41,916 nucleotides of DNA from a virus: the UHGV virus genome UHGV-0326656. One strand, written 5' to 3'. Each line of letters starts with the position of its first letter. The first letter of the stretch is position 1. Shown here one piece after another: positions 8,296-39,502 of this stretch. The notes beneath the pieces were generated by a model, which had not been told where the DNA came from, ran no database searches, and worked only from the letters and a program-made list of their open reading frames with translations. Made by a program: the position numbers and the translations under genes.

Positions 8296-9170
8296 ACCCC
8301 TACCTCTTCGAATTCCAATTCCAATTGATCACCCCAGATTTCACATGACTCTGAACACGAACCGGTATCGAATCGCCTGGCCTGTACCATCGCCTGATAC
8401 AAATTTCTGTAGTCGCTGTTGGCAGACATTCTGGCAATTCCGTCAAGCGTCAGGTGACCACGGTACATAATGTCTTTACCTGTTCTGCGATGACCATCCC
8501 TGACGTGTTTGCCTGTAACCAGCTCATTAAAAACTCGCATCAGACCTGGTTCGTCTTTACATGCAAGCCCCAGCTTTTGCGTTGACTTTTTGATGCAGAA
8601 AACACAGTTCCCGAGATGCTCCGGGATTTGCAAATCAAAAGGTTGTTTTCGCCACCACCGGATAACATCCGACTTATCAAAATCTGACAGCTCGGCAAGA
8701 TACCGGACGCCCGATTTCGGTTTCAGCCTACGGGGTTCGTCTGCACGAATACCCAGCCATGTGATGTAATTACCTCGCCCGAAATGGTTATCGCAGTATT
8801 TCGTGAAAGGGATGAGTTTTAGCCTGTCAGTACAGAACGCGCCGCCGATGTATGGCGTGCCGTACTTTTTAACCATGTCCATAAACGGTTTAAGCACCGG
8901 CATTCGTGTCTGAATATCCTTTGGCTCCCATTCTGTATAACCATTTGGCTGCCCAAGCTCAGGATTTATATCGACCTGTAACACAGTTAGTGGTATGTCC
9001 CAGAGCTTTACAACCTCCCGGATAAAGCGGTATGTCAGCGGATGTTCGCAACCGGTATCCATAAAGATGTAGCAGACGTTATTGCCAGCCTTTCTTTGTT
9101 CTTCCATCAGGTGAACAAGATATGCGGATGTTCTCCCGCCAGAAAAACTAACTACATGAGTTATGCACAT
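8292..9170 (-). CDS. PAPS reductase-like (PP-loop ATP pyrophosphatase family) phage protein
   Basis: SFSGGRTSAYLVH PP-loop motif near N-terminus; start taken at MCITHVV... (the upstream in-frame extension overlaps the neighbouring gene). Confidence 0.7.
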   Translation of the reverse strand: MCITHVVSFSGGRTSAYLVHLMEEQRKAGNNVCYIFMDTGCEHPLTYRFIREVVKLWDIPLTVLQVDINPELGQPNGYTEWEPKDIQTRMPVLKPFMDMVKKYGTPYIGGAFCTDRLKLIPFTKYCDNHFGRGNYITWLGIRADEPRRLKPKSGVRYLAELSDFDKSDVIRWWRKQPFDLQIPEHLGNCVFCIKKSTQKLGLACKDEPGLMRVFNELVTGKHVRDGHRRTGKDIMYRGHLTLDGIARMSANSDYRNLYQAMVQARRFDTGSCSESCEIWGDQLELEFEEVGV

Positions 9171-9824: not shown

Positions 9825-10649
9825 TCAGGCGGTGAAAGTACCAATAAAGGTTTCTACTTTGCTGTCTTTGAATTTCTCAACAAGCAGATCACGAAATTCG
9901 TTAGCCATATCTTCCTGCACTGCTTCCAGCTGAATAATGCGCAGAACCAGTACAGGACGATCGCCAGTGATAATGCTGAGGCGTAATTTAAACGGACGTT
10001 CTTTCAGACCTTCAAACGGAACGCATTTAAATTCAAATGCCACTGGCATAATGTCTTTGGTCTTCGCTTCGACAGATTCCATCAGGGAGCGTTTGCCGCT
10101 GAAGTCATTATCTTCAAAATCAGCGGTCTGGTTTGCTTCAATCGTGATTTTACGGATTGCCGCAGCCGCTTTTGTTGCCTGAATGGCGTCACCATTAGCA
10201 TCAAAGCCCACAAGGTAGTCGGCCCAGTCTTCAATCCATTCTGCCAGTGACTTCTGGGAGTTACGCTCGCCGTTAACAGACAACAGAGCAGAGAACGGTG
10301 CTGTCTTTTTCAGTTTGAGTGTGGCGGTGTTATCTGCGTGACCTGGTTCATCAATAGTACCCAGGTTAAGCACACTGACGGCACGCATATTATCAGCATC
10401 GATAAAGCAGCGGGTGCCTTCATCTGCAAGATCTTTAGAATAACGGGTAAAGTCATCGATGCTGGCAGTGGAAAGCGCACCACGGAAACGGAAGCGATTT
10501 AAATTAAATTTTTCCAGATCATGAATGCGGAAATTCTCAGGCAATGCCACAGCATCGGCACCAATCTTACTGATAATTTCATTAACACCCTGAGCAGAAA
10601 TAAGGGCATGGATTTGATTAATTGCGGTTGCGTCTAAGTTCTGAGACAT
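9825..10649 (-). CDS. DUF2303 (YfdQ-like) phage protein
   Basis: 274-aa ORF; length and gene neighbourhood (next to the HD protein) match the CPS-53 yfdQ-yfdR pair as remembered. Confidence 0.55.
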
Positions 10650-10714
10650 AATAAGTCCTCACTATATAAAGATATTCAGTGATGAGATAAATAATCAGTT
10701 AATTAAAAACGATA

Positions 10715-11077
10715 TTAACGACCTGCTGCGCGGAGTTTTCCGTCAGGTTCACCGGCAAGAGTCAGCAACTGTCCCTGGTCTTCCTGCAGAATAGTCAGGC
10801 GACCACCGCGATTGACATACATCGGCGTTTCGGTGGTGTCTTCTTCGGAAATTTTCCCGCGGTTAGTCGGGCGAACATATGAGAGTTTGTGTTTGATTTT
10901 CACTCGGTTCTCATCAAACGGTTCGATTTCCAGGTTGAGCGAGACCTTACCTTTGGTTTTCGTGTTCATCACACCGGAAGCGACTTCACTGAGAACTGCG
11001 CCGATTTTGGTTTCAAATACGCCGCCGTCCAGCTCCCCGATAAATGCCTGCACATCAGTACTGCGTTCGCTAGCCAT
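10715..11077 (-). CDS. hypothetical phage protein, 120 aa
   Basis: Start at MASERSTDVQ... with GAGGAG 7 nt upstream; the 100-codon upstream extension in the ORF track is GC-rich, Arg/Cys-rich and looks non-coding. Confidence 0.6.
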   Translation of the reverse strand: MASERSTDVQAFIGELDGGVFETKIGAVLSEVASGVMNTKTKGKVSLNLEIEPFDENRVKIKHKLSYVRPTNRGKISEEDTTETPMYVNRGGRLTILQEDQGQLLTLAGEPDGKLRAAGR

Positions 11078-11545
11078 TTTGCTGCTCCTCATCATATCGA
11101 CCCTGCAAGGTCGGTTAGTTTCTCCACAAAACAGAGAAGAACACCTGCGGTGGCTGCCGCCCGGATGGATTGGGTTATGAGCCCGTCGTCCGGTGATGCT
11201 CTTCTCTGTTTTGTAAAAAGGACGGTACCAGCCGGAAGCAAGGGTACAAGCTGGTACCGCCAAGACTACACACAGCATAAAGTTGTGGTGCCGGGTGCCT
11301 CCCGGTGCCTGGCGAAGGTTGCACACCAGGCGGGTGGGTATCCACAGAAGGTCGACTGTCAGCCTCAACCTTAACCCGCGTGCGCTGAGCCGCATTCACC
11401 ACAACGCTAAGGATTCTCTCTGGTTGAAAATACTTAGCTGTTATGTGCCTGCTTTTAGCCACATCAGGCGAGGTGGACCTAGTTATTCCCCAACAACAAG
11501 GATTCGGTTAATCTGGTTATCCCCAACAACGCAAAAGGAAAAGAA

Positions 11546-11980
11546 ATGTCCGGTAATATCTATACGCTGTACAAATCCCACTGTGAAAATGTTGGAAAGT
11601 ATCGGGGCATTGAAATCAGTGGGGTAGTGTCATCAGTCGAAATAAGCAAAGTTGAATCAAGGGCAACATTACTTACTCTTCTGGACCTTGTCTTACATGA
11701 GCACCGGAAGAAATTCGGCACTCCCTATAATCAGTTGAATGGGAAAAAGGCTCTGGTTCACCTTATTCTGATGAAGCATCACTGGATGCCAAAACAGATT
11801 AATGAGATGAAATTTGATGAACTTCTTCTTTCAATTCAGGATGAACTCACACTTGATAAAATAAGCGTAACCGCCCAGAAATTTTTAGATTATCGAGACT
11901 GGAGATCACAAATTCATCACTTTGATGATTTTGACGAAAATGAATGGGATCCTAATTTGTCTGCACAATATCTAAAGTAA
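11546..11980 (+). CDS. hypothetical protein, 144 aa, AT-rich moron in the immunity region
   Basis: AAGGA ribosome-binding site; oriented against the leftward early operon; preceded by two TTATYCCCCAACAAC direct repeats. Confidence 0.55.
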   Translation: MSGNIYTLYKSHCENVGKYRGIEISGVVSSVEISKVESRATLLTLLDLVLHEHRKKFGTPYNQLNGKKALVHLILMKHHWMPKQINEMKFDELLLSIQDELTLDKISVTAQKFLDYRDWRSQIHHFDDFDENEWDPNLSAQYLK

Positions 11981-12158
11981 CATCCTGTGATAAAACCGTG
12001 ATTTCCTGATCCAGTTTTTTTAAGGAGTCTATTGTTTCCTGTCGATAAGACAGCACTTCACGAAGCTGGTTTATAGCTGCCAGCTTCTTTGTCATCCACT
12101 CATAAATTTCCTCATCTGTGTAGCCAGGCGCGACGATTTTGGGTTCTGTTTTGTGCAT
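11952..12158 (-). CDS. hypothetical small protein, 68 aa, first gene downstream of the putative pL
   Basis: ATG at 12158 preceded by GAGGAGA at 6-nt spacing; the TTG start in the ORF track lies inside that ribosome-binding site. Confidence 0.55.
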   Translation of the reverse strand: MHKTEPKIVAPGYTDEEIYEWMTKKLAAINQLREVLSYRQETIDSLKKLDQEITVLSQDVTLDIVQTN

Positions 12159-12195
12159 TTCACATCTCCTCAAGTTATCAGTTACTTGTTGATGG

Positions 12196-12236
12196 GGACC
12201 AGATTGTTAAAGAGCTAAGCGTCCTGTAGGGCGCTT
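12196..12236 (-). promoter_or_regulatory. boxA-like element (GCTCTTTAACAA) with adjacent hairpin; candidate nut-like site; same hairpin plus T-run reads as a + strand terminator
   Basis: Minus strand: hairpin AGCGCCC-TACA-GGACGCT, then TAG, then CTCTTTAACAA, which matches the remembered rrn boxA TGCTCTTTAACAA at 12 of 13. Confidence 0.4.
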
Positions 12237-12406
12237 TTTTGTTGCTAACGAATCATCCTGGACTTCATATGCCCCAGGCGGCTACTTCGTGGGCGTCCTG
12301 CCTGTTCGTTTTTGACATTTACTGACTGCTTACGACACATGCACCGTGTTGCAACCAGATTTTGTTGTAATCCTGTAGTTGGTCTGGAACAAAAGATAAA
12401 ATTAAA

Positions 12407-12443
12407 TTGCGAGATATGCAAGTTATATTTGCGAGATATGCAA
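12407..12443. promoter_or_regulatory. oL-like operator pair, two copies of TTGCGAGATATGCAA 22 bp apart
   Basis: Identical 15-mers at 12407-12421 and 12429-12443; same TTGCG-N5-GCAA pattern as 13211-13225 beside cI; reverse complement gives TTGCAT -35-like hexamers for a leftward promoter. Confidence 0.55.
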
Positions 12444-12454
12444 ATTTATAGGTA

Positions 12455-12477
12455 ATAAAAAGCCACCTTTCGGTGGC
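12455..12477 (-). terminator. rho-independent terminator downstream of cI
   Basis: Minus strand GCCACC-GAAA-GGTGGC followed by TTTTTA, about 20 nt after the cI stop. Confidence 0.6.
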
Positions 12478-12497
12478 CGATGGATGGGATATTGAGG

Positions 12498-13190
12498 TTA
12501 ATTATGTCTCTTAAGGGTTTGCGACTGACTGATTAAGACCTTTCCAAAGACCATGAATCGGTGTTCGTTTTCGCTAGTAATTCCCCATTCACGGTAAATC
12601 TGGTTATCAGAAATCACCAGCAGTTTGTCAGGAATCATTTGAAGTCTTTTAACGTATATTTTGTCATCAAAACCAAAGACATATATACCATCACCATCAA
12701 ACTGATTGATGCTGACATCAACGAAGATGAGATCTCCTGGCTCAATGGTTGGACACATACTGTCCCCACGAACGTTGATAACTTTGATGTGATTGGCTGG
12801 TCGTCCGCCGAACATTGATACAGCATTATCAGTTCTGTATTCGATGGCATGAATCACATCAATGACATCACCGCCCTGGATAAGGCCATTTCCCGCACTG
12901 GCACTGATATCCAGCATTTCAATACGGAACACATCCTTCACCTGCGCAACATCCTCATTGTTACTGTTTTTATATACAGTATTACTTTTGTGGGCAGAGG
13001 TAAAGAGATCAGCAATATCAACACCTAAGCTCTTGGCAATATTACTCAGTGTTTGTTCGGTAAATTGTTTTTGCTTACCCGTTTCTAAGCGCGAGATGTT
13101 CGCCGCATCTACTCCTATCGCTTCAGCGAGATCGGCGATTTTCATGTTCTTCGCTTGGCGAAGTTGTCTGACTCGGTTTCCTATGTTCAT
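12498..13190 (-). CDS. cI: CI-type repressor (N-terminal HTH, C-terminal S24 LexA-like peptidase domain)
   Basis: N-terminal HTH (VRQLRQAKNMKIADLAEAIGVDAANISRLETGK) and C-terminal ...INVRGDSMCPTIEPGDLIFVD...KIYVKRL with Ser/Lys dyad; divergent from cro. Confidence 0.9.
   Translation of the reverse strand: MNIGNRVRQLRQAKNMKIADLAEAIGVDAANISRLETGKQKQFTEQTLSNIAKSLGVDIADLFTSAHKSNTVYKNSNNEDVAQVKDVFRIEMLDISASAGNGLIQGGDVIDVIHAIEYRTDNAVSMFGGRPANHIKVINVRGDSMCPTIEPGDLIFVDVSINQFDGDGIYVFGFDDKIYVKRLQMIPDKLLVISDNQIYREWGITSENEHRFMVFGKVLISQSQTLKRHN
12962..12981. promoter_or_regulatory. near-consensus LexA (SOS) box inside the cI coding sequence
   Basis: TACTGTTTTTATATACAGTA = CTGT-N8-ACAG with AT-rich spacer, about 18 of 20 to the consensus TACTGTATATATATACAGTA; falls in the cI interdomain linker. 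Confidence 0.5.
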
Positions 13191-13210
13191 GCGTTTATTA
13201 CATTTCTTTA

Positions 13211-13225
13211 TTGCGTGATAAGCAA
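13211..13225. promoter_or_regulatory. oR-like operator in the cI-cro intergenic region
   Basis: TTGCGTGATAAGCAA differs from the two 12407-12443 copies at two positions; further ATTGCG/CGCAAT repeats follow up to the cro start. Confidence 0.5.
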
Positions 13226-13287
13226 ATCAACTTGCGCAAAATAATTGCGTGAAATAACATGCATAACGCGCAATATTTGGAGGGCGT

Positions 13288-13548
13288 ATGCAATCACCAT
13301 TACGAAATGTGCGTAAGGCGCATGGTTTCACTTTGCAGCATGTTGCTGCGGGTGTTCAAGTCAATCCAGCGACGTTGAGTCGTATTGAGAGGCTGGAGCA
13401 GATTCCATCTATCGAGCTTGCAGAACGTTTAGCCAATTTTTTTAAGGGTGAAGTCAGCGAAATGCAGATTCTTTATCCGGCACGTTTTCAATCTAGCCAA
13501 AACCAGAATGGGTTTAAACCACAGGAACAGGAGGTGAACCGTGGGTAA
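13288..13548 (+). CDS. cro: Cro-like HTH regulator
   Basis: 86 aa, HTH (FTLQHVAAGVQVNPATLSRIER), GGAGG ribosome-binding site, divergent from cI. Confidence 0.8.
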   Translation: MQSPLRNVRKAHGFTLQHVAAGVQVNPATLSRIERLEQIPSIELAERLANFFKGEVSEMQILYPARFQSSQNQNGFKPQEQEVNRG

Positions 13549-14092
13549 GCATCACTGGAAAGTAGAAAAACAGCCTGAGTGGTACGTGAAAGCTGTCAGA
13601 AAAACTATCGCAGCGTTGCCGGGGGGGTACGCTGAAGCTGCTGACTGGCTGGATGTAACAGAGAACGCATTATTTAACCGCCTTCGTGCCGATGGCGATC
13701 AGATTTTCCCGCTGGGATGGGCAATGATTTTGCAACGTGCTGGTGGAACTCACTTCATTGCTGACGCTGTGGCGCAGTCTGCAAATGGCGTCTTTGTGTC
13801 TCTTCCTGATGTCGAGGATGTGGACAACGCCGATATCAACCAACGCCTGCTGGAGGTCATTGAACAGATCGGCAGTTATTCAAAACAGATTCGTTCAGCA
13901 ATTGAAGACGGTGTAGTGGAACCGCATGAGAAGACAGCAATTAACGACGAGCTGTACCTCTCAATTTCGAAGCTGCAGGAGCATGCAGCACTGGTCTACA
14001 AAATTTTTTGCATTTCAGAAAGTAATGACGCCCGCGAGTGTGCAGCTCCGGGCGCCGTGGCGTGTCGTGACTGTGGAGAAACTAACGCATGA
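13541..14092 (+). CDS. phage regulatory protein, CII-like (CP76-type) (tentative)
   Basis: 183 aa, GTG start with AGGAGG ribosome-binding site, in the position of cII; family assignment from memory only. Confidence 0.45.
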
Positions 14093-14447
14093 ACAGTTTA
14101 ACAACACACTACCGTCGCTCGCAACTGATTGCGCTTCCTGTACCGGGTGGAAAAGCGAAGGTGGAGTATTGCTATGCAGTAAATGTACCAGGTGGCAGGG
14201 TAATTGTAACCCACAGCTTTGCAGAGTGGGCTGTGGGTGATTTTAACCGGCAAAAGGAGACAGTCCTTTGCGACAAGTTAACCGCTGGTTCAAAGATCAC
14301 TACGGAGTACCCGTCAGAGTCATTCGTTGGGAGCCGGAAACACAACGGGTTATCTACCTCCGTGAAGGCTATGAGCATGAGTGCTTCAGCCCGCTCGAAC
14401 AGTTTCGTCGTAAATTCAGGGAAATAGAGGTCGGTCATGAGCACTAA
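14089..14447 (+). pseudogene. small phage gene apparently split by a frameshift at an A-run (frame change near 14252-14255)
   Basis: ATG at 14089 with GGAG ribosome-binding site; after about 55 codons the product turns Ser-rich and low-complexity, while the other frame from 14247 encodes protein-like ...[50 protein letters not shown]... ending at 14447. Confidence 0.4.
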
Positions 14448-15378
14448 ATTAACCGGCTATGTATGGGATGGTTGCGCAGCGTCAGGCATGAAATTATCCA
14501 GCGTGGCAATTATGGCCCGCCTGGCTGATTTCAGTAATGACGAAGGTGTGTGCTGGCCATCAATTGAAACCATTGCCCGTCAGATTGGCGCGGGGATGAG
14601 TACCGTCAGGACGGCTATCGCACGGCTGGAAGCAGAAGGCTGGTTAACGCGTAAGGCGCGTCGCCAGGGTAACCGCAATGCGTCGAATGTTTATCAGCTT
14701 AACGTTGCGAAGCTTCAGGCAGCGGCATTTTCTCAACTGTCAGATTCTGACCCGTCAAAATCTGACGCATCAAAATCTGACCCGTCAAAATTTGATGCGT
14801 CGAAATCTGGCAAAAAAGCGGGTTTTCACCCGTCAGAATCTGGCGGGGATCCGTCAGTAAAATCAAAACATGATCCGTCAGATAAAAAACCTTCTCGTCC
14901 GGACGCTTCGCAACCGGACACGCAGACGGATGAACAGGATTTTTTAACTCGCCATCCTGATGCGGTTGTATTCAGCCCTAAAAAGCGCCAGTGGGGAACG
15001 CAGGATGATTTGACCTGCGCACAGTGGCTCTGGAAAAAAATCATCGCCCTGTACGAGCAAGCCGCCGAATGTGACGGCGAGGTGGTTCGTCCCAAAGAAC
15101 CGAACTGGACAGCCTGGGCAAACGAAATTCGCCTAATGTGTGTGCAGGATGGTCGTACTCACAAACAAATCTGCGAGATGTACAGCCGCGTCAGCCGAGA
15201 TCCGTTCTGGTGCCGTAACGTGCTCAGCCCGTCGAAGCTGCGGGAAAAATGGGATGAGCTTTCCCTGCGCTTATCACCGTCCGTCAGCACGTACACCGAA
15301 AAACGCGAAGACCCGTACTTCAAATCCAGTTACGACAACGTGGACTACAGCCAGATCCCGGCAGGATTCAGGGGGTGA
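14437..15378 (+). CDS. replication initiator (lambda O-like, winged-helix N-terminus) with internal iterons
   Basis: N-terminal winged-helix region (LSSVAIMARLADFSNDEGVCWPSIETIARQIGAGMSTVRTAIARLEAEGWL); central SKSD-type peptide repeats encoded by the DNA iterons. Confidence 0.75.
   Translation: MSTKLTGYVWDGCAASGMKLSSVAIMARLADFSNDEGVCWPSIETIARQIGAGMSTVRTAIARLEAEGWLTRKARRQGNRNASNVYQLNVAKLQAAAFSQLSDSDPSKSDASKSDPSKFDASKSGKKAGFHPSESGGDPSVKSKHDPSDKKPSRPDASQPDTQTDEQDFLTRHPDAVVFSPKKRQWGTQDDLTCAQWLWKKIIALYEQAAECDGEVVRPKEPNWTAWANEIRLMCVQDGRTHKQICEMYSRVSRDPFWCRNVLSPSKLREKWDELSLRLSPSVSTYTEKREDPYFKSSYDNVDYSQIPAGFRG
14738..14890. repeat. about eight direct 15-bp iterons (CCGTCAAAATCTGAC-like); candidate phage replication origin
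   Basis: Units at 15-bp period: CCGTCAAAATCTGAC, GCATCAAAATCTGAC, CCGTCAAAATTTGAT, GCGTCGAAATCTGGC, CCGTCAGAATCTGGC, CCGTCAGTAAAATC, CCGTCAGATAAAAAA. Confidence 0.7.
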
Positions 15379-38457: not shown

Positions 38458-39502
38458 ATTTCAGCGCCCGACGCTGGCAGAAAATATCAGTATGCTCCGT
38501 AACGATTTATTCGCCAGGCTGGACGTCAGCGACACGCTCCGGCGCATGGATGAAGACGTGCGGGCAAAGGTGTATGCGGCGGCGCTGCATACGGTTTACG
38601 GGTACATCGATTATCTGGCAATGAACATTCTGCCTGACCTGTGCGATGAGTCCTGGCTGGCGCGACATGCTGCGATGAAACGGTGTCCGCGCAAGGGGGC
38701 CACGGCTGCCAGCGGGTATATGCGCTGGGAAGGTGTCAGCGATGGCCTGAAGGTGACCGCCGGGAGTGTTATTCAGCGCGATGACCTGGTGCAGTACACG
38801 GCAACTGCCGATGCAACCAGCTCCGGTGGTGTCCTGCGCGTGCCGATCGCCTGCTCAAATGCAGGCGCGGTCGGTAACGCTGACGACGGTACGGCATTAA
38901 TCCTGGTCACGCCGGTGAATGGTCTGCCGTCTTCCGGTGTGGCTGACACCCTGACAGGCGGATTTGATACTGAAGAGCTGGAAACGTGGCGCGCCCGCGT
39001 CATTGAGCGGTATTACTGGACGCCGCAGGGTGGGGCTGACGGGGACTATGTCGTCTGGGCTAAAGAAGTGCCCGGCATTACCCGCGCATGGACATACCGT
39101 CACTGGATGGGAACGGGAACTGTCGGTGTGATGATTGCCAGCAGTGACCTGATTAATCCCATTCCGGAAGAATCAACGGAAACGGCGGCAAGACAACATA
39201 TCGGGCCACTGGCCCCGGTGGCAGGCTCTGATTTGTATGTGTTCAGGCCGGTGGCACATACGGTGGATTTTCATATCCGCGTGACGCCGGACACACCGGA
39301 AATACGGGCTGCCATCACCGCGGAGTTGCGTTCGCTCCTGCTGCGTGATGGTTATCCGCAGGGAGAACTGAAGGTATCGCGTATCAGTGAGGCGATTTCC
39401 GGTGCGAACGGGGAATACAGCCATCAGTTGCTTGCACCGGCAGACAATATCTCCATTGCAAAAAATGAACTGGCGGTACTGGGGACGATTTCATGGACGT
39501 GA
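38444..39502 (+). CDS. baseplate J-like protein (Mu gp47)
   Basis: 352 aa in conserved order. Confidence 0.8.

What the first reader, a model, noticed from the sequence alone, without database searches (positions are those of the whole stretch)
14738..14890. Iteron array inside the replication initiator gene
About eight direct repeats at 15-bp period (CCGTCAAAATCTGAC and variants) sit in the middle of the O-like gene and also produce SKSD-type peptide repeats. This mirrors lambda ori within O and probably marks the phage origin. The 15-bp period, five codons per repeat, is shorter than lambda's 19-bp iterons.
Basis: partly seen in the sequence, partly recalled or inferred. Interest (0 to 1): 0.4.

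Follow-up and report, generated by a model that had tools for sequence, protein, structure and literature searches.

The report
Prophage replication origin inside initiator gene
The repeats are real and are very probably the initiator-binding sites (iterons) of this lambda-like prophage's replication origin, embedded in the initiator's own gene; this is an ordinary kind of origin in a version that does not seem to have been described.

Summary
Observation confirmed. Five tandem 15-bp units (14737-14811) and a sixth full unit (14830-14844) lie in the O-like gene 14437-15378; two GATCCGTCAG part-units follow. Only the first five keep the 15-bp period. Each unit holds a 13-bp near-palindrome, GTCArAwTCTGAC.

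The tract is constrained as DNA, not as peptide. Across about 90 relatives, synonymous-codon identity to the window is 0.72-0.85 in the tract and about 0.42 in the better-conserved N-domain (87 of 88 loci). Serine codons there are 85% TCA/TCT. One clade reads the same motif in another frame.

The repeats travel with the winged-helix N-domain, not with the C-domain or neighbouring genes. Natural domain swaps and remote relatives carry different dyad-symmetric repeats at the same position. The least stable 30-mer of the gene lies just downstream.

Best reading: a lambda-style origin (iterons, then an AT-rich tract) in the linker between initiator domains. The N-domain is HTH_36, not lambda-O type. 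The C-domain is lambda-O-like. No P or DnaC gene follows, and the protein ends in DnaT's last nine residues (8 of 9 identical). Binding and origin firing are untested. New member of a known kind; modest interest.

The parts
14437..15378 (+). O-like replication initiator gene (313 aa) that contains the origin
   Evidence: ORF. PHROG 391 'replication initiation O-like', E 1e-135 over the full length. Annotated 'DNA replication protein O' or 'primosomal protein' in SfII, SfIV and other phages at 98-99% identity.
14437..14730 (+). Coding region for the winged-helix N-domain (aa 1-98), the presumed iteron-binding domain
   Evidence: Pfam HTH_36 E 4e-11, with weaker GntR, PaaX, DnaD_N and RP-C hits. 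No profile similarity to the lambda O N-domain. Conserved at 58-100% amino-acid identity in 97 loci, with synonymous sites saturated at about 0.42 identity.
14728..14751 (+). Extended first unit TTTTCTCAACTGTCAGATTCTGAC; contains the perfect 13-bp palindrome GTCAGATTCTGAC (14739-14751)
   Evidence: D1, I8. The same extended form recurs at 14823-14844 and is the only unit type in the Proteus/Providencia relatives.
14737..14811 (+). Five tandem 15-bp iterons (units at 14737, 14752, 14767, 14782, 14797); each is a 13-bp near-palindrome plus a 2-bp spacer
   Evidence: In the position matrix of 388 phased units from 90 loci, information is high at unit positions 4-14, including codon third positions, and low at positions 1-3 and 15. 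Copy number is 5 in 70 of 74 near-identical prophages; 3 have one extra unit and 1 has two.
14812..14822 (+). A-rich spacer AAAAAAGCGGG between the tandem array and the last full unit
   Evidence: Its length differs by 1 nt in the phiP27 clade, which shifts the reading frame across the next unit.
14823..14847 (+). Extended last unit TTTTCACCCGTCAGAATCTGGCGGG (15-bp core at 14830-14844)
   Evidence: (D1). The DNA is nearly invariant across genera. It is read as FHPSES/FDPSES in most loci and as (F)T(L/R)QNL in L003, L009 and L080.
14848..14857 (+). Distal repeat 1, GATCCGTCAG (contains a Dam GATC site)
   Evidence: D3. GAwCCrywA is present in 86 of 91 distinct loci. It does not change in lineages whose iterons changed.
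14858..14890 (.). A+T-rich, A-strand-biased tract; candidate DNA-unwinding element (it encloses distal repeat 2)
   Evidence: 14858-14887 is the least stable 30-mer inside the gene (nearest-neighbour free energy -34.1 kcal/mol, 73% A+T) and falls in the least stable 4% of the whole window. It is adjacent to the iterons on the promoter-distal side, as in lambda.
14872..14881 (+). Distal repeat 2, GATCCGTCAG (contains a Dam GATC site)
   Evidence: (D3).
14891..14919 (+). Module junction: 15-bp-spaced pair CTTCTCGTCCGGAC / CTTCGCAACCGGAC, where the N-domain-plus-origin module joins alternative C-domain modules
   Evidence: D4. phiNP similarity to the window ends at about 14916-14926. mEp460_4F5 similarity begins at 14879.
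14950..15267 (+). Coding region for the lambda-O-like C-terminal domain (aa 172-277)
   Evidence: BLASTP against lambda O, E 7e-26, aligned with lambda O residues 177-270. PHROG 277 and 2357. No Pfam model matches.
15349..15375 (+). C-terminal tail SQIPAGFRG, 8 of 9 identical to the last nine residues of E. coli DnaT
   Evidence: The tail occurs on different C-domain types. In the sampled loci it goes with the absence of a phage DnaC-like or P-like gene.
14268..14447 (+). DUF4222 small gene overlapping the initiator start; a frequent neighbour but not the determinant of iteron sequence
   Evidence: Pfam DUF4222, E 9e-19. Present upstream in 74 of 97 loci. It is 98% identical in mEp460_4F5, whose iterons are unrelated, and 43% identical in phiNP, whose iterons are identical.

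Best explanation
The tract 14728-14890 is the cis-acting replication origin of this SfII/SfIV-type lambdoid prophage. It is written into the linker-coding part of the initiator gene.

Proposed mechanism:
1. Dimers of the initiator's winged-helix N-domain bind the six GTCArAwTCTGAC near-palindromes. This is inferred from symmetry, DNA-level conservation and co-inheritance.
2. The packed nucleoprotein complex destabilises the adjoining A+T-rich segment at 14858-14890. This is inferred from position and duplex stability, by analogy with the lambda O-some.
3. The lambda-O-like C-domain, with its DnaT-like tail, then brings in the host DnaB-DnaC helicase complex, because the phage encodes no P or DnaC homologue. 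This step is inferred, and it is the least certain one.

The SKSD-type peptide repeats are a by-product. The linker tolerates whatever peptide the DNA sites encode, and a 15-bp period (five codons) lets units be gained or lost without breaking the reading frame.
For: What the sequence and tools show directly:

- Non-random, in-frame array with internal dyad symmetry.
- DNA-level constraint. Codon identity to the window at conserved degenerate amino acids is 0.83/0.79/0.72 in the array and 0.85/0.77/0.77 in the distal part, against 0.44/0.41/0.42 in the N-domain, for three bins of divergence. Amino-acid identity is nevertheless lower in the tract. 87 of 88 diverged loci go this way.
- Codon choice. 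Serine codons in the linker are TCA 50% plus TCT 35%, against 21% for the two in the N-domain. AGC plus AGT are 5% against 52%. AAA makes up 90% of lysine codons against 61%.
- Pattern inside the unit. The variable positions are first and second codon positions of the spacer codon, while third positions of TCA, AAA and TCT are fixed.
- Frame independence. The motif TTTsACCCkTCAGAATCTG is kept in a shifted frame in L003, L009 and L080.
- Linkage to the N-domain. phiNP shares the N-domain and a nearly identical repeat tract but has a different C-domain. mEp460_4F5 has a C-domain 96.6% identical to the window's, but an unrelated N-domain and unrelated iterons (about 5 x GGGTCAAAGTGACC at 23 bp). 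Lineages with an altered recognition helix and wing have altered cores (L011, L086-L091).
- Remote HTH_36 initiators carry other dyad-symmetric repeats at the same gene position: Min27 3 x GGGGCAGGAGCTGCCC, RAH1 4 x TATGCCATCTGATGGCAC, and a Vibrio phage 3 x GGTCAAATTCCGACC.
- DUF4222 and the downstream genes do not track the repeats.
- Lambda-like layout: same inter-domain position as the annotated lambda iterons, followed by the least stable 30-mer of the gene.
- C-domain homologous to lambda O, no loader gene in the neighbourhood, and a DnaT-identical tail that goes with loader absence in the sampled relatives.

From the literature: lambda-type O proteins bind such iterons as dimers, and silent iteron mutations abolish replication of lambdoid plasmids (PMC7466680).
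Against: - No binding, unwinding or origin-activity data exist for this family. I found no paper describing its origin.
- The A+T-rich tract is short and only 73% A+T, in the least stable 4% of the window rather than an extreme.
- The loci are phylogenetically related, so the 87-of-88 count is not 87 independent events. The frame shift is a single evolutionary event in one clade. The switches of iteron core within the family amount to only one or two events.
- The position matrix is partly circular, because units were chosen by match to the core.
- The helicase-recruitment step rests on a nine-residue match and a small sample of neighbouring genes. YeP1-type relatives have neither the tail nor a loader.
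Confidence: 0.75

Rival explanations
1. The sites are bound by the initiator but are not the origin. On this reading the array serves autoregulation, copy control, incompatibility or exclusion (titration or handcuffing, as with plasmid iterons outside the origin), and replication starts elsewhere.
For: The comparative evidence demonstrates a DNA element co-inherited with the N-domain. It does not demonstrate initiation at that element. The A+T-rich tract is modest.
Against: The position and order (iterons, then an A+T-rich tract, between the N- and C-domain coding parts) match the proven lambda origin. No second array of the motif exists in the 41.9-kb window: the only other match with up to 3 mismatches is at 8674. 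In natural swaps the origin-like tract, including its own A+T-rich part, travels with the N-domain.
Confidence: 0.1
2. The repeats are a slippage-generated low-complexity peptide linker (Ser/Asp/Lys-rich). On this reading they matter only as protein, or not at all, and have no function as DNA.
For: The region encodes a repetitive, probably unstructured linker. No secondary structure is predicted for residues about 102-163, though the model is low-confidence. Unit number varies by whole units between close relatives.
Against: Synonymous sites are far more conserved than in the folded N-domain, while the peptide is less conserved. Serine and lysine codon choice is extreme. The substitutions that are tolerated are non-synonymous ones in the spacer codon. 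The same DNA is read in another frame in one clade. Each unit has dyad symmetry. The non-repetitive distal part is equally constrained.
Confidence: 0.04
3. The conservation reflects frequent recombination at a module junction, which would homogenise this short segment among phages, rather than selection on a binding site.
For: The tract sits next to a real mosaic junction at 14879-14925. Lambdoid phages exchange modules at such points.
Against: Conservation is position-specific within each unit: the palindromic core is fixed and the 2-4 spacer bases are free, even among near-identical prophages. The pattern holds from Escherichia to Proteus, Providencia and Yersinia, where N-domain synonymous sites are saturated. 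Lineages with a changed N-domain have changed cores at the same position, which homogenisation would erase.
Confidence: 0.05
4. The tract acts as an RNA or single-stranded-DNA hairpin, for example an mRNA structure controlling translation of the initiator or a cruciform signal, not as a protein-binding array.
For: The 201-nt tract folds much better than shuffled sequence: -67.5 kcal/mol, z = -5.65. Positions 7 and 11 of the unit are statistically associated (odds ratio 8.5).
Against: The commonest core, TCAAAATCTGA, is a mismatched palindrome: A7 opposite C11 in 238 of 505 units. So the sequence is conserved, not the pairing. Good folding is expected for any array of near-palindromes. Rfam gives only sub-threshold hits to eukaryotic miRNA hairpin models, on both strands (30.7 bits against a gathering score of 97). 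The long-range hairpin depends on unit number, which varies.
Confidence: 0.04

Closest known systems
ori-lambda within gene O of phage lambda and lambda-type Stx phages (four to six 18-19-bp iterons plus an A+T-rich region)
   Same: The iterons lie inside the initiator gene, between its DNA-binding N-domain and its C-domain. Each iteron has dyad symmetry. An A+T-rich tract lies on the promoter-distal side. The origin is inherited with the N-terminal half of the protein. The C-terminal domain is homologous (E 7e-26). The extra codons encode a tolerated linker peptide; PMC7466680 makes the same point for the 13 extra residues of the Stx O proteins.
   Different: The N-domain is HTH_36, with no detectable similarity to the lambda O N-domain. 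The iteron sequence is unrelated: GTCArAwTCTGAC against ATCCCTCAAAACGAGGGA. The period is 15 bp for five units against 20-24 bp. The array is bracketed by extended units. There are conserved GATC-bearing distal repeats. No P gene follows. The protein ends in a DnaT-like tail that lambda O lacks.
Other HTH_36-type 'O-like' phage initiators (PHROG 391 and relatives: SfII, SfIV, phiP27 L17, Min27/24B O, P22-like SI5, Klebsiella RAH1)
   Same: Same N-domain fold family and the same placement of a dyad-symmetric repeat array directly after the N-domain coding part. SfII and SfIV are 98.8-98.9% identical over the whole gene.
   Different: Repeat sequence and spacing differ with the N-domain: 21-24 bp in Min27, SI5 and RAH1, and 17 and 22 bp in the Vibrio phage. 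The C-domains and the helicase-loading partner also differ: DnaC-like plus DnaB in phiP27, P-like in RAH1, primase-helicase in SI5, and none here. I found no published description of the origin for any of them.
Iteron-containing plasmid origins (Rep proteins of pPS10, R6K, RK2, F and P1 with winged-helix domains)
   Same: Arrays of direct repeats bound by a replicon-specific winged-helix initiator, next to an A+T-rich unwinding region. The general mechanism is reviewed in PMC4980987 and PMC5043065 (found; cited from my own knowledge of their content).
   Different: Plasmid iterons are usually about 17-22 bp, spaced about two helical turns apart, intergenic, and bound by Rep monomers. Here the units are near-palindromes packed at 15 bp inside the coding sequence. 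The only sequence link is a sub-threshold RP-C hit (E 0.005, 17 bits against a cutoff of 24).
E. coli DnaT (primosomal protein i) and DopC
   Same: The last nine residues are 8 of 9 identical to DnaT's C-terminus. PMC5509034 reports an HTH_36 O-like protein (DopC) carrying a DnaT C-terminal motif.
   Different: There is no similarity to DnaT outside the tail. DnaT is not a sequence-specific origin binder. The function of the tail is not established in the reviews I read (PMC5778457, PMC13220808).

Membership tests
Lambda-type phage origin (iterons inside the initiator gene) | Several direct repeats with internal dyad symmetry inside the initiator ORF, between the N- and C-domain coding parts | tested here: met
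   Six full units at codons 101-136 of 313. The annotated lambda iterons lie at codons 117-145 of 299.
Lambda-type phage origin (iterons inside the initiator gene) | An A+T-rich, easily melted tract directly adjoining the iterons on the promoter-distal side | tested here: met
   14858-14887 is the least stable 30-mer in the gene (73% A+T, least stable 4% of the window). It is shorter and less extreme than lambda's.
Lambda-type phage origin (iterons inside the initiator gene) | Origin specificity is inherited with the N-terminal half of the initiator | tested here: met
   Natural swaps in phiNP and mEp460_4F5. Covariation in L011, L086-L091 and the remote relatives. No linkage to DUF4222.
Lambda-type phage origin (iterons inside the initiator gene) | Selection acts on the DNA sequence independently of the encoded peptide | tested here: met
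   Synonymous-site conservation, codon bias, and frame-shifted retention of the motif.
Lambda-type phage origin (iterons inside the initiator gene) | The initiator binds the iterons, and replication starts there | not testable with these tools
   This needs EMSA or footprinting, origin mapping, or mini-replicon assays.
Lambda-type phage origin (iterons inside the initiator gene) | A P-type helicase loader is encoded immediately downstream and works with the initiator's C-domain | tested here: not met
   The next genes are PerC-like, a LexA DNA-binding-domain protein, and RusA. P-like or DnaC-like genes occur only after relatives with other C-terminal tails.
Lambda O protein family (Pfam Phage_rep_O N-domain) | N-terminal DNA-binding domain of the lambda O type | tested here: not met
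   No Phage_rep_O hit in Pfam. BLASTP aligns only the linker and C-domain. hhalign of the N-domain profile against lambda O residues 1-120 gives probability 0.1%.
Lambda O protein family (Pfam Phage_rep_O N-domain) | C-terminal domain of the lambda O type | tested here: met
   BLASTP E 7e-26, residues 172-277 against lambda O 177-270.
HTH_36-type O-like phage initiators (PHROG 391) | HTH_36 winged-helix N-domain and a full-length match to the PHROG profile | tested here: met
   Pfam HTH_36 42.9 bits against a cutoff of 25. PHROG 391 E 1e-135, covering 1-313 of the protein and 1-298 of 298 profile positions.
Iteron-plasmid Rep initiators | Sequence membership in a plasmid Rep family (for example Rep_3 or RP-C) | tested here: not met
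   Only RP-C at 17.2 bits, below the 24.4-bit cutoff. No PDB sequence relative beyond weak MarR hits.
DnaT (primosomal protein i) | Homology to DnaT's domains, not only to its terminal peptide | tested here: not met
   Only the last nine residues align (8 of 9 identical). The 'primosomal protein' labels in public records therefore overstate the relationship.

The most novel reading that the evidence does not exclude
This could be a P-less variant of lambdoid initiation. Under this reading, an unusually compact iteron array (13-bp palindromes every 15 bp, with neighbouring dimers on nearly opposite faces of the helix) opens a short A+T-rich tract that is flanked by conserved GATC-bearing repeats; those repeats are read by a host factor or by Dam/SeqA, not by the initiator. 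The initiator then recruits the host DnaB-DnaC complex directly, through a C-terminal peptide copied from (or ancestral to) the tail of the restart protein DnaT. That would also give a function to the DnaT tail, whose partner is not defined in the reviews I read.
Probability: 0.25. Interest if true: 0.6.

Novelty: new member of a known kind. Interest (0 to 1): 0.35.

Why it matters
- **Prevalence.** The initiator gene has a match in 2724 of 5426 complete E. coli genomes, and in 1576 of them the match covers at least 80% of the gene. It is also present in the Shigella serotype-converting phages SfII and SfIV and in prophages across Enterobacterales. Its origin is not annotated in any record I opened.
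- **Annotation and engineering.** Placing the origin helps annotation, the design of prophage-derived replicons, and predictions of which co-resident prophages compete for the same initiator.
- **Dual coding.** This is a clean natural example: a protein linker whose sequence is dictated by DNA-binding sites. Repeat peptides in such linkers should not be read as protein motifs.
- **Helicase recruitment.** The DnaT-like tail offers a testable lead on how lambdoid phages without a P gene obtain a helicase.

Tried and rejected
- **Structure prediction** from the single sequence gave a poor model (mean pLDDT 44). I used only its secondary-structure pattern and ran no fold search.
- **PDB sequence search** gave only weak MarR and PaaX hits.
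- **The viral-contig scan** returned 80 loci that all have a 100% identical N-domain. They were useful only for copy-number polymorphism.
- **The plasmid search** was uninformative on autonomous replication. Some hits are phage-sized circles; others are very large replicons, presumably carrying prophages or mislabelled chromosomes.
- **GATC clustering** at 14848/14872 is not statistically unusual: there are 12 such close pairs in the window, and GATC is slightly under-represented overall. I make no Dam/SeqA claim beyond noting that the sites are conserved.
- **DnaA-box and IHF-site resemblances** in the distal tract were judged by eye only. They are not conserved across relatives, so I dropped them.
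- **DUF4222 as the iteron-binding protein** was rejected.
- **A curated RNA family** was rejected.
- **The Stx 'P27' O-iteron paper** (PMC7466680) concerns a lambda-type O. It serves as a paradigm, not as data on this family.
- **Literature searches** for a description of this origin found nothing. The library lacks most subscription-journal papers, including the SfV genome paper and the classical lambdoid-origin papers, so prior description cannot be excluded.
- **The recognition-helix pattern** in the script for one search matched nothing. That covariation table therefore rests on the wing motif alone, and 11 loci were left unclassified.
Full report
**What is there**

The window is an SfII/SfIV-type lambdoid prophage. 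The 942-bp ORF 14437-15378 is 98.8-99.3% identical to the 'replication protein O' or 'primosomal protein' genes of Shigella phages SfII and SfIV and of several E. coli phages. It has a match in 2724 of 5426 complete E. coli genomes.

It sits in a standard early-right operon:
- CI-like repressor, 12498-13190 (minus strand)
- Cro-like gene, 13288-13548
- CII-like gene, 13541-14092
- a small DUF4222 gene, 14268-14447
- the initiator, 14437-15378
- then PerC-like, LexA-DNA-binding-domain-like and RusA genes

The initiator has three parts. Residues 1-98 form an HTH_36 winged-helix N-domain. Residues about 100-165 form a repetitive linker. Residues 172-277 form a C-domain homologous to that of lambda O (BLASTP E 7e-26).

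**The observation**

Five 15-bp units lie head to tail at 14737-14811. A sixth full unit lies at 14830-14844, after an A-rich spacer. Two part-units, GATCCGTCAG, lie at 14848 and 14872. Tandem Repeats Finder scores the array at 86 (period 15) and 100 (period 30). The consensus with up to three mismatches occurs 9 times in the window against 1.26 expected, and 8 of the 9 are in this tract.

The units are in frame and give the peptide LSDSD-PSKSD-ASKSD-PSKFD-ASKSG.

Two features were not mentioned. Each unit contains a 13-bp near-palindrome, GTCArAwTCTGAC; the first is perfect (14739-14751). The first and last full units are extended forms, TTTTCnCAnCnGTCAGAwTCTGrC.

**Is it DNA or peptide that is conserved?**

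I collected about 90 distinct relatives with N-domain identity from 58 to 100%: phage records and one genome per species. All have the same layout. There are 2-9 phased 15-bp units by the match criterion, then an A-rich spacer, an extended unit, GATCCrTCA repeats around an A-rich segment, and a conserved junction. Four tests that do not depend on how I picked the units agree.

1. **Synonymous sites.** At residues identical to the window, the codon is also identical in 0.72-0.85 of cases in the tract, against 0.41-0.44 in the N-domain. The tract's amino-acid identity is lower than the N-domain's. 87 of 88 diverged loci show this.
2. **Codon choice.** Serine codons in the linker are 85% TCA or TCT and 5% AGC or AGT. 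In the N-domain the figures are 21% and 52%.
3. **Near-identical prophages.** Single-base differences fall mainly in the 2-4 spacer bases, where they change the amino acid. The array changes length only by whole units: 70 prophages have five units, 3 have six and 1 has seven.
4. **Reading frame.** In the phiP27 clade, a 1-nt shorter spacer and a 1-nt longer downstream segment shift the frame across the last unit. TTTsACCCkTCAGAATCTG is then read as TLQNL or TRQNL instead of DPSES or HPSES, yet the DNA motif is kept.

A position matrix of 388 phased units shows high information on the palindromic core, including codon third positions, and low information in the spacer. That matrix is partly circular, because units were selected by their match to the core.

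**Which protein reads it?**

The repeats follow the N-domain.
- Citrobacter phage phiNP shares the N-domain (about 80% nucleotide identity, with many silent differences) and a nearly identical repeat tract. Homology stops about 20-30 bp after the tract, and a different, DnaD-like C-domain follows.
- mEp460_4F5 has a C-domain 96.6% identical to the window's from 14879 onward. Its N-domain is unrelated. Its own iterons are about five GGGTCAAAGTGACC units at 23 bp, and it has its own A+T-rich repeats.
- Relatives with a one-residue insertion and a changed recognition helix and wing have changed cores. L011 and L091 have GGGGTCAAATATTGA. L086, L089 and L090 have 19-bp palindromes of the form GGGGTCAAnnnTTGACCCC.
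- HTH_36 initiators only 38-46% identical carry other dyad-symmetric repeats at the same gene position, 17-24 bp apart: Min27, SI5, RAH1 and a Vibrio phage.
- The upstream DUF4222 gene does not track the repeats. It is 98% identical in mEp460_4F5, whose iterons are unrelated, and 43% identical in phiNP, whose iterons are identical. It is absent from 23 of 97 loci.
- The downstream genes vary freely.

**Origin layout**

In the lambda record, four 18-bp iterons start 20, 24 and 23 bp apart at codons 117-145 of O and are followed by the A+T-rich region. Here the units occupy codons 101-136. The least stable 30-mer of the whole gene, 14858-14887 (73% A+T), follows directly. The tract therefore has the lambda order, at the equivalent place in a protein that shares lambda O's C-domain. 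The N-domain, however, is not lambda-O type.

**Mechanism proposed**

- Inferred from the evidence above: N-domain dimers occupy the six near-palindromes.
- Inferred by analogy with the lambda O-some (PMC7466680 and the reviews found): the complex destabilises 14858-14890.
- Inferred, weakest step: the C-domain recruits the helicase. No P, DnaC or DnaB homologue lies nearby. The protein ends in SQIPAGFRG, 8 of 9 identical to the last nine residues of E. coli DnaT.

The IPxGFRG tail occurs on different C-domain types. In the relatives I sampled, initiators lacking it are followed by IstB/DnaC-like or lambda-P-like genes, and initiators carrying it are followed by Dam or PerC-like genes. YeP1-type proteins are an exception, with neither a tail nor a loader. 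How DnaT recruits DnaB-DnaC is described as unknown in PMC5778457. PMC5509034 already noted an HTH_36 O-like protein with a DnaT C-terminal motif.

**Rivals**

- **Pure peptide linker.** Contradicted by the four tests above.
- **Homogenisation by recombination at the module junction.** It does not explain the position-specific pattern inside units, or the changed cores in lineages with a changed N-domain.
- **RNA or cruciform hairpin.** Suggested by good folding (z = -5.65). But the commonest core is a mismatched palindrome, and Rfam gives only sub-threshold hits to miRNA hairpin models.
- **Initiator-binding sites that are not the origin.** This cannot be excluded without experiments.

**Novelty**

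Origins made of iterons inside the initiator gene are textbook for lambdoid phages. This one is a member with a different DNA-binding domain, a different iteron and tighter packing. I found no description of it in the searchable literature, which omits much of the older subscription literature. I rate it a new member of a known kind, of modest interest. The side observations (the DnaT-like tail, and the conserved distal repeats that do not depend on initiator type) are the more intriguing leads.

Noticed in passing
window 15349-15375: The initiator ends in SQIPAGFRG, 8 of 9 identical to the extreme C-terminus of E. coli DnaT (SQIPPGFRG). The IPxGFRG tail sits on different C-domain types. In the sampled relatives it goes with the absence of a phage DnaC-like or P-like loader gene, so it may be a host helicase-recruitment peptide.
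   Followed up: partly
window 14268-14447 versus 14089-14427: There is an annotation conflict. A 59-aa ORF (TTG start, overlapping the initiator start by 11 nt) is a clear DUF4222 protein (E 9e-19). Phage records such as SfIV instead annotate a 112-aa ORF in another frame that has no Pfam match. DUF4222 lies directly upstream of the initiator in 74 of 97 loci.
   Followed up: partly
window 14848-14857 and 14872-14881; L173-L175: The distal repeats GATCCGTCAG, each with a Dam site, flank the most A+T-rich segment. They are present in 86 of 91 relatives and stay the same where the iterons changed. Remote relatives with unrelated iterons have a look-alike, GAACCAGTCA. So they appear independent of initiator specificity, and their role is unknown.
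   Followed up: partly
L003 (phiP27), L009, L080, about 450-470 nt into the gene: A pair of compensating 1-nt length changes puts the last iteron in a different reading frame (TLQNL or TRQNL instead of DPSES or HPSES) while the DNA motif is preserved.
   Followed up: yes
L172:662-679 (lambda 39161-39178): To the right of lambda's A+T-rich region, CGTCAGAGAATTCTGGCG resembles this family's unit CCGTCAGAATCTGGCG. Providencia-type relatives carry a lambda-like SSxNSxESSDQ segment at the corresponding place. This could be chance or shared ancestry of the linker.
   Followed up: no
E. coli K-12 records, hits H45-H48: The K-12 CPS-53 (KpLE1) copy, upstream of yfdN, matches only positions 234-942 of the gene. 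It keeps the whole iteron tract but lacks about the first 78 codons of the DNA-binding domain, which fits a defective replication module.
   Followed up: no
L092-L171; hit H44: Unit copy number is polymorphic among otherwise identical prophages. Of 74, 70 have five tandem units, 3 have six and 1 has seven. One complete E. coli genome has a 30-bp longer gene.
   Followed up: yes
L003 (NC_003356 phiP27, record 10334-13537): The 'P27' O protein studied in PMC7466680 is lambda-type, differing from lambda O by two substitutions and a 13-residue insertion. The phiP27 record in the phage collection instead carries an HTH_36-type initiator (L17) followed by DnaC-like and DnaB genes. I did not resolve whether these are the same phage.
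   Followed up: no
L021, L043, L048, L010: Enterobacterial-type initiator modules occur in records labelled Vagococcus (88% N-domain identity), Chryseobacterium (85%), Martelella (82%) and 'Elizabethkingia phage EKP1' (61%). The first three probably reflect contamination or mislabelled hosts.
   Followed up: no
window 14891-14919: A second 15-bp-spaced pair, CTTCTCGTCCGGAC / CTTCGCAACCGGAC, lies exactly at the junction where alternative C-domain modules are joined. GTCCGGAC is itself a palindrome. The pair is conserved across C-domain types.
   Followed up: partly
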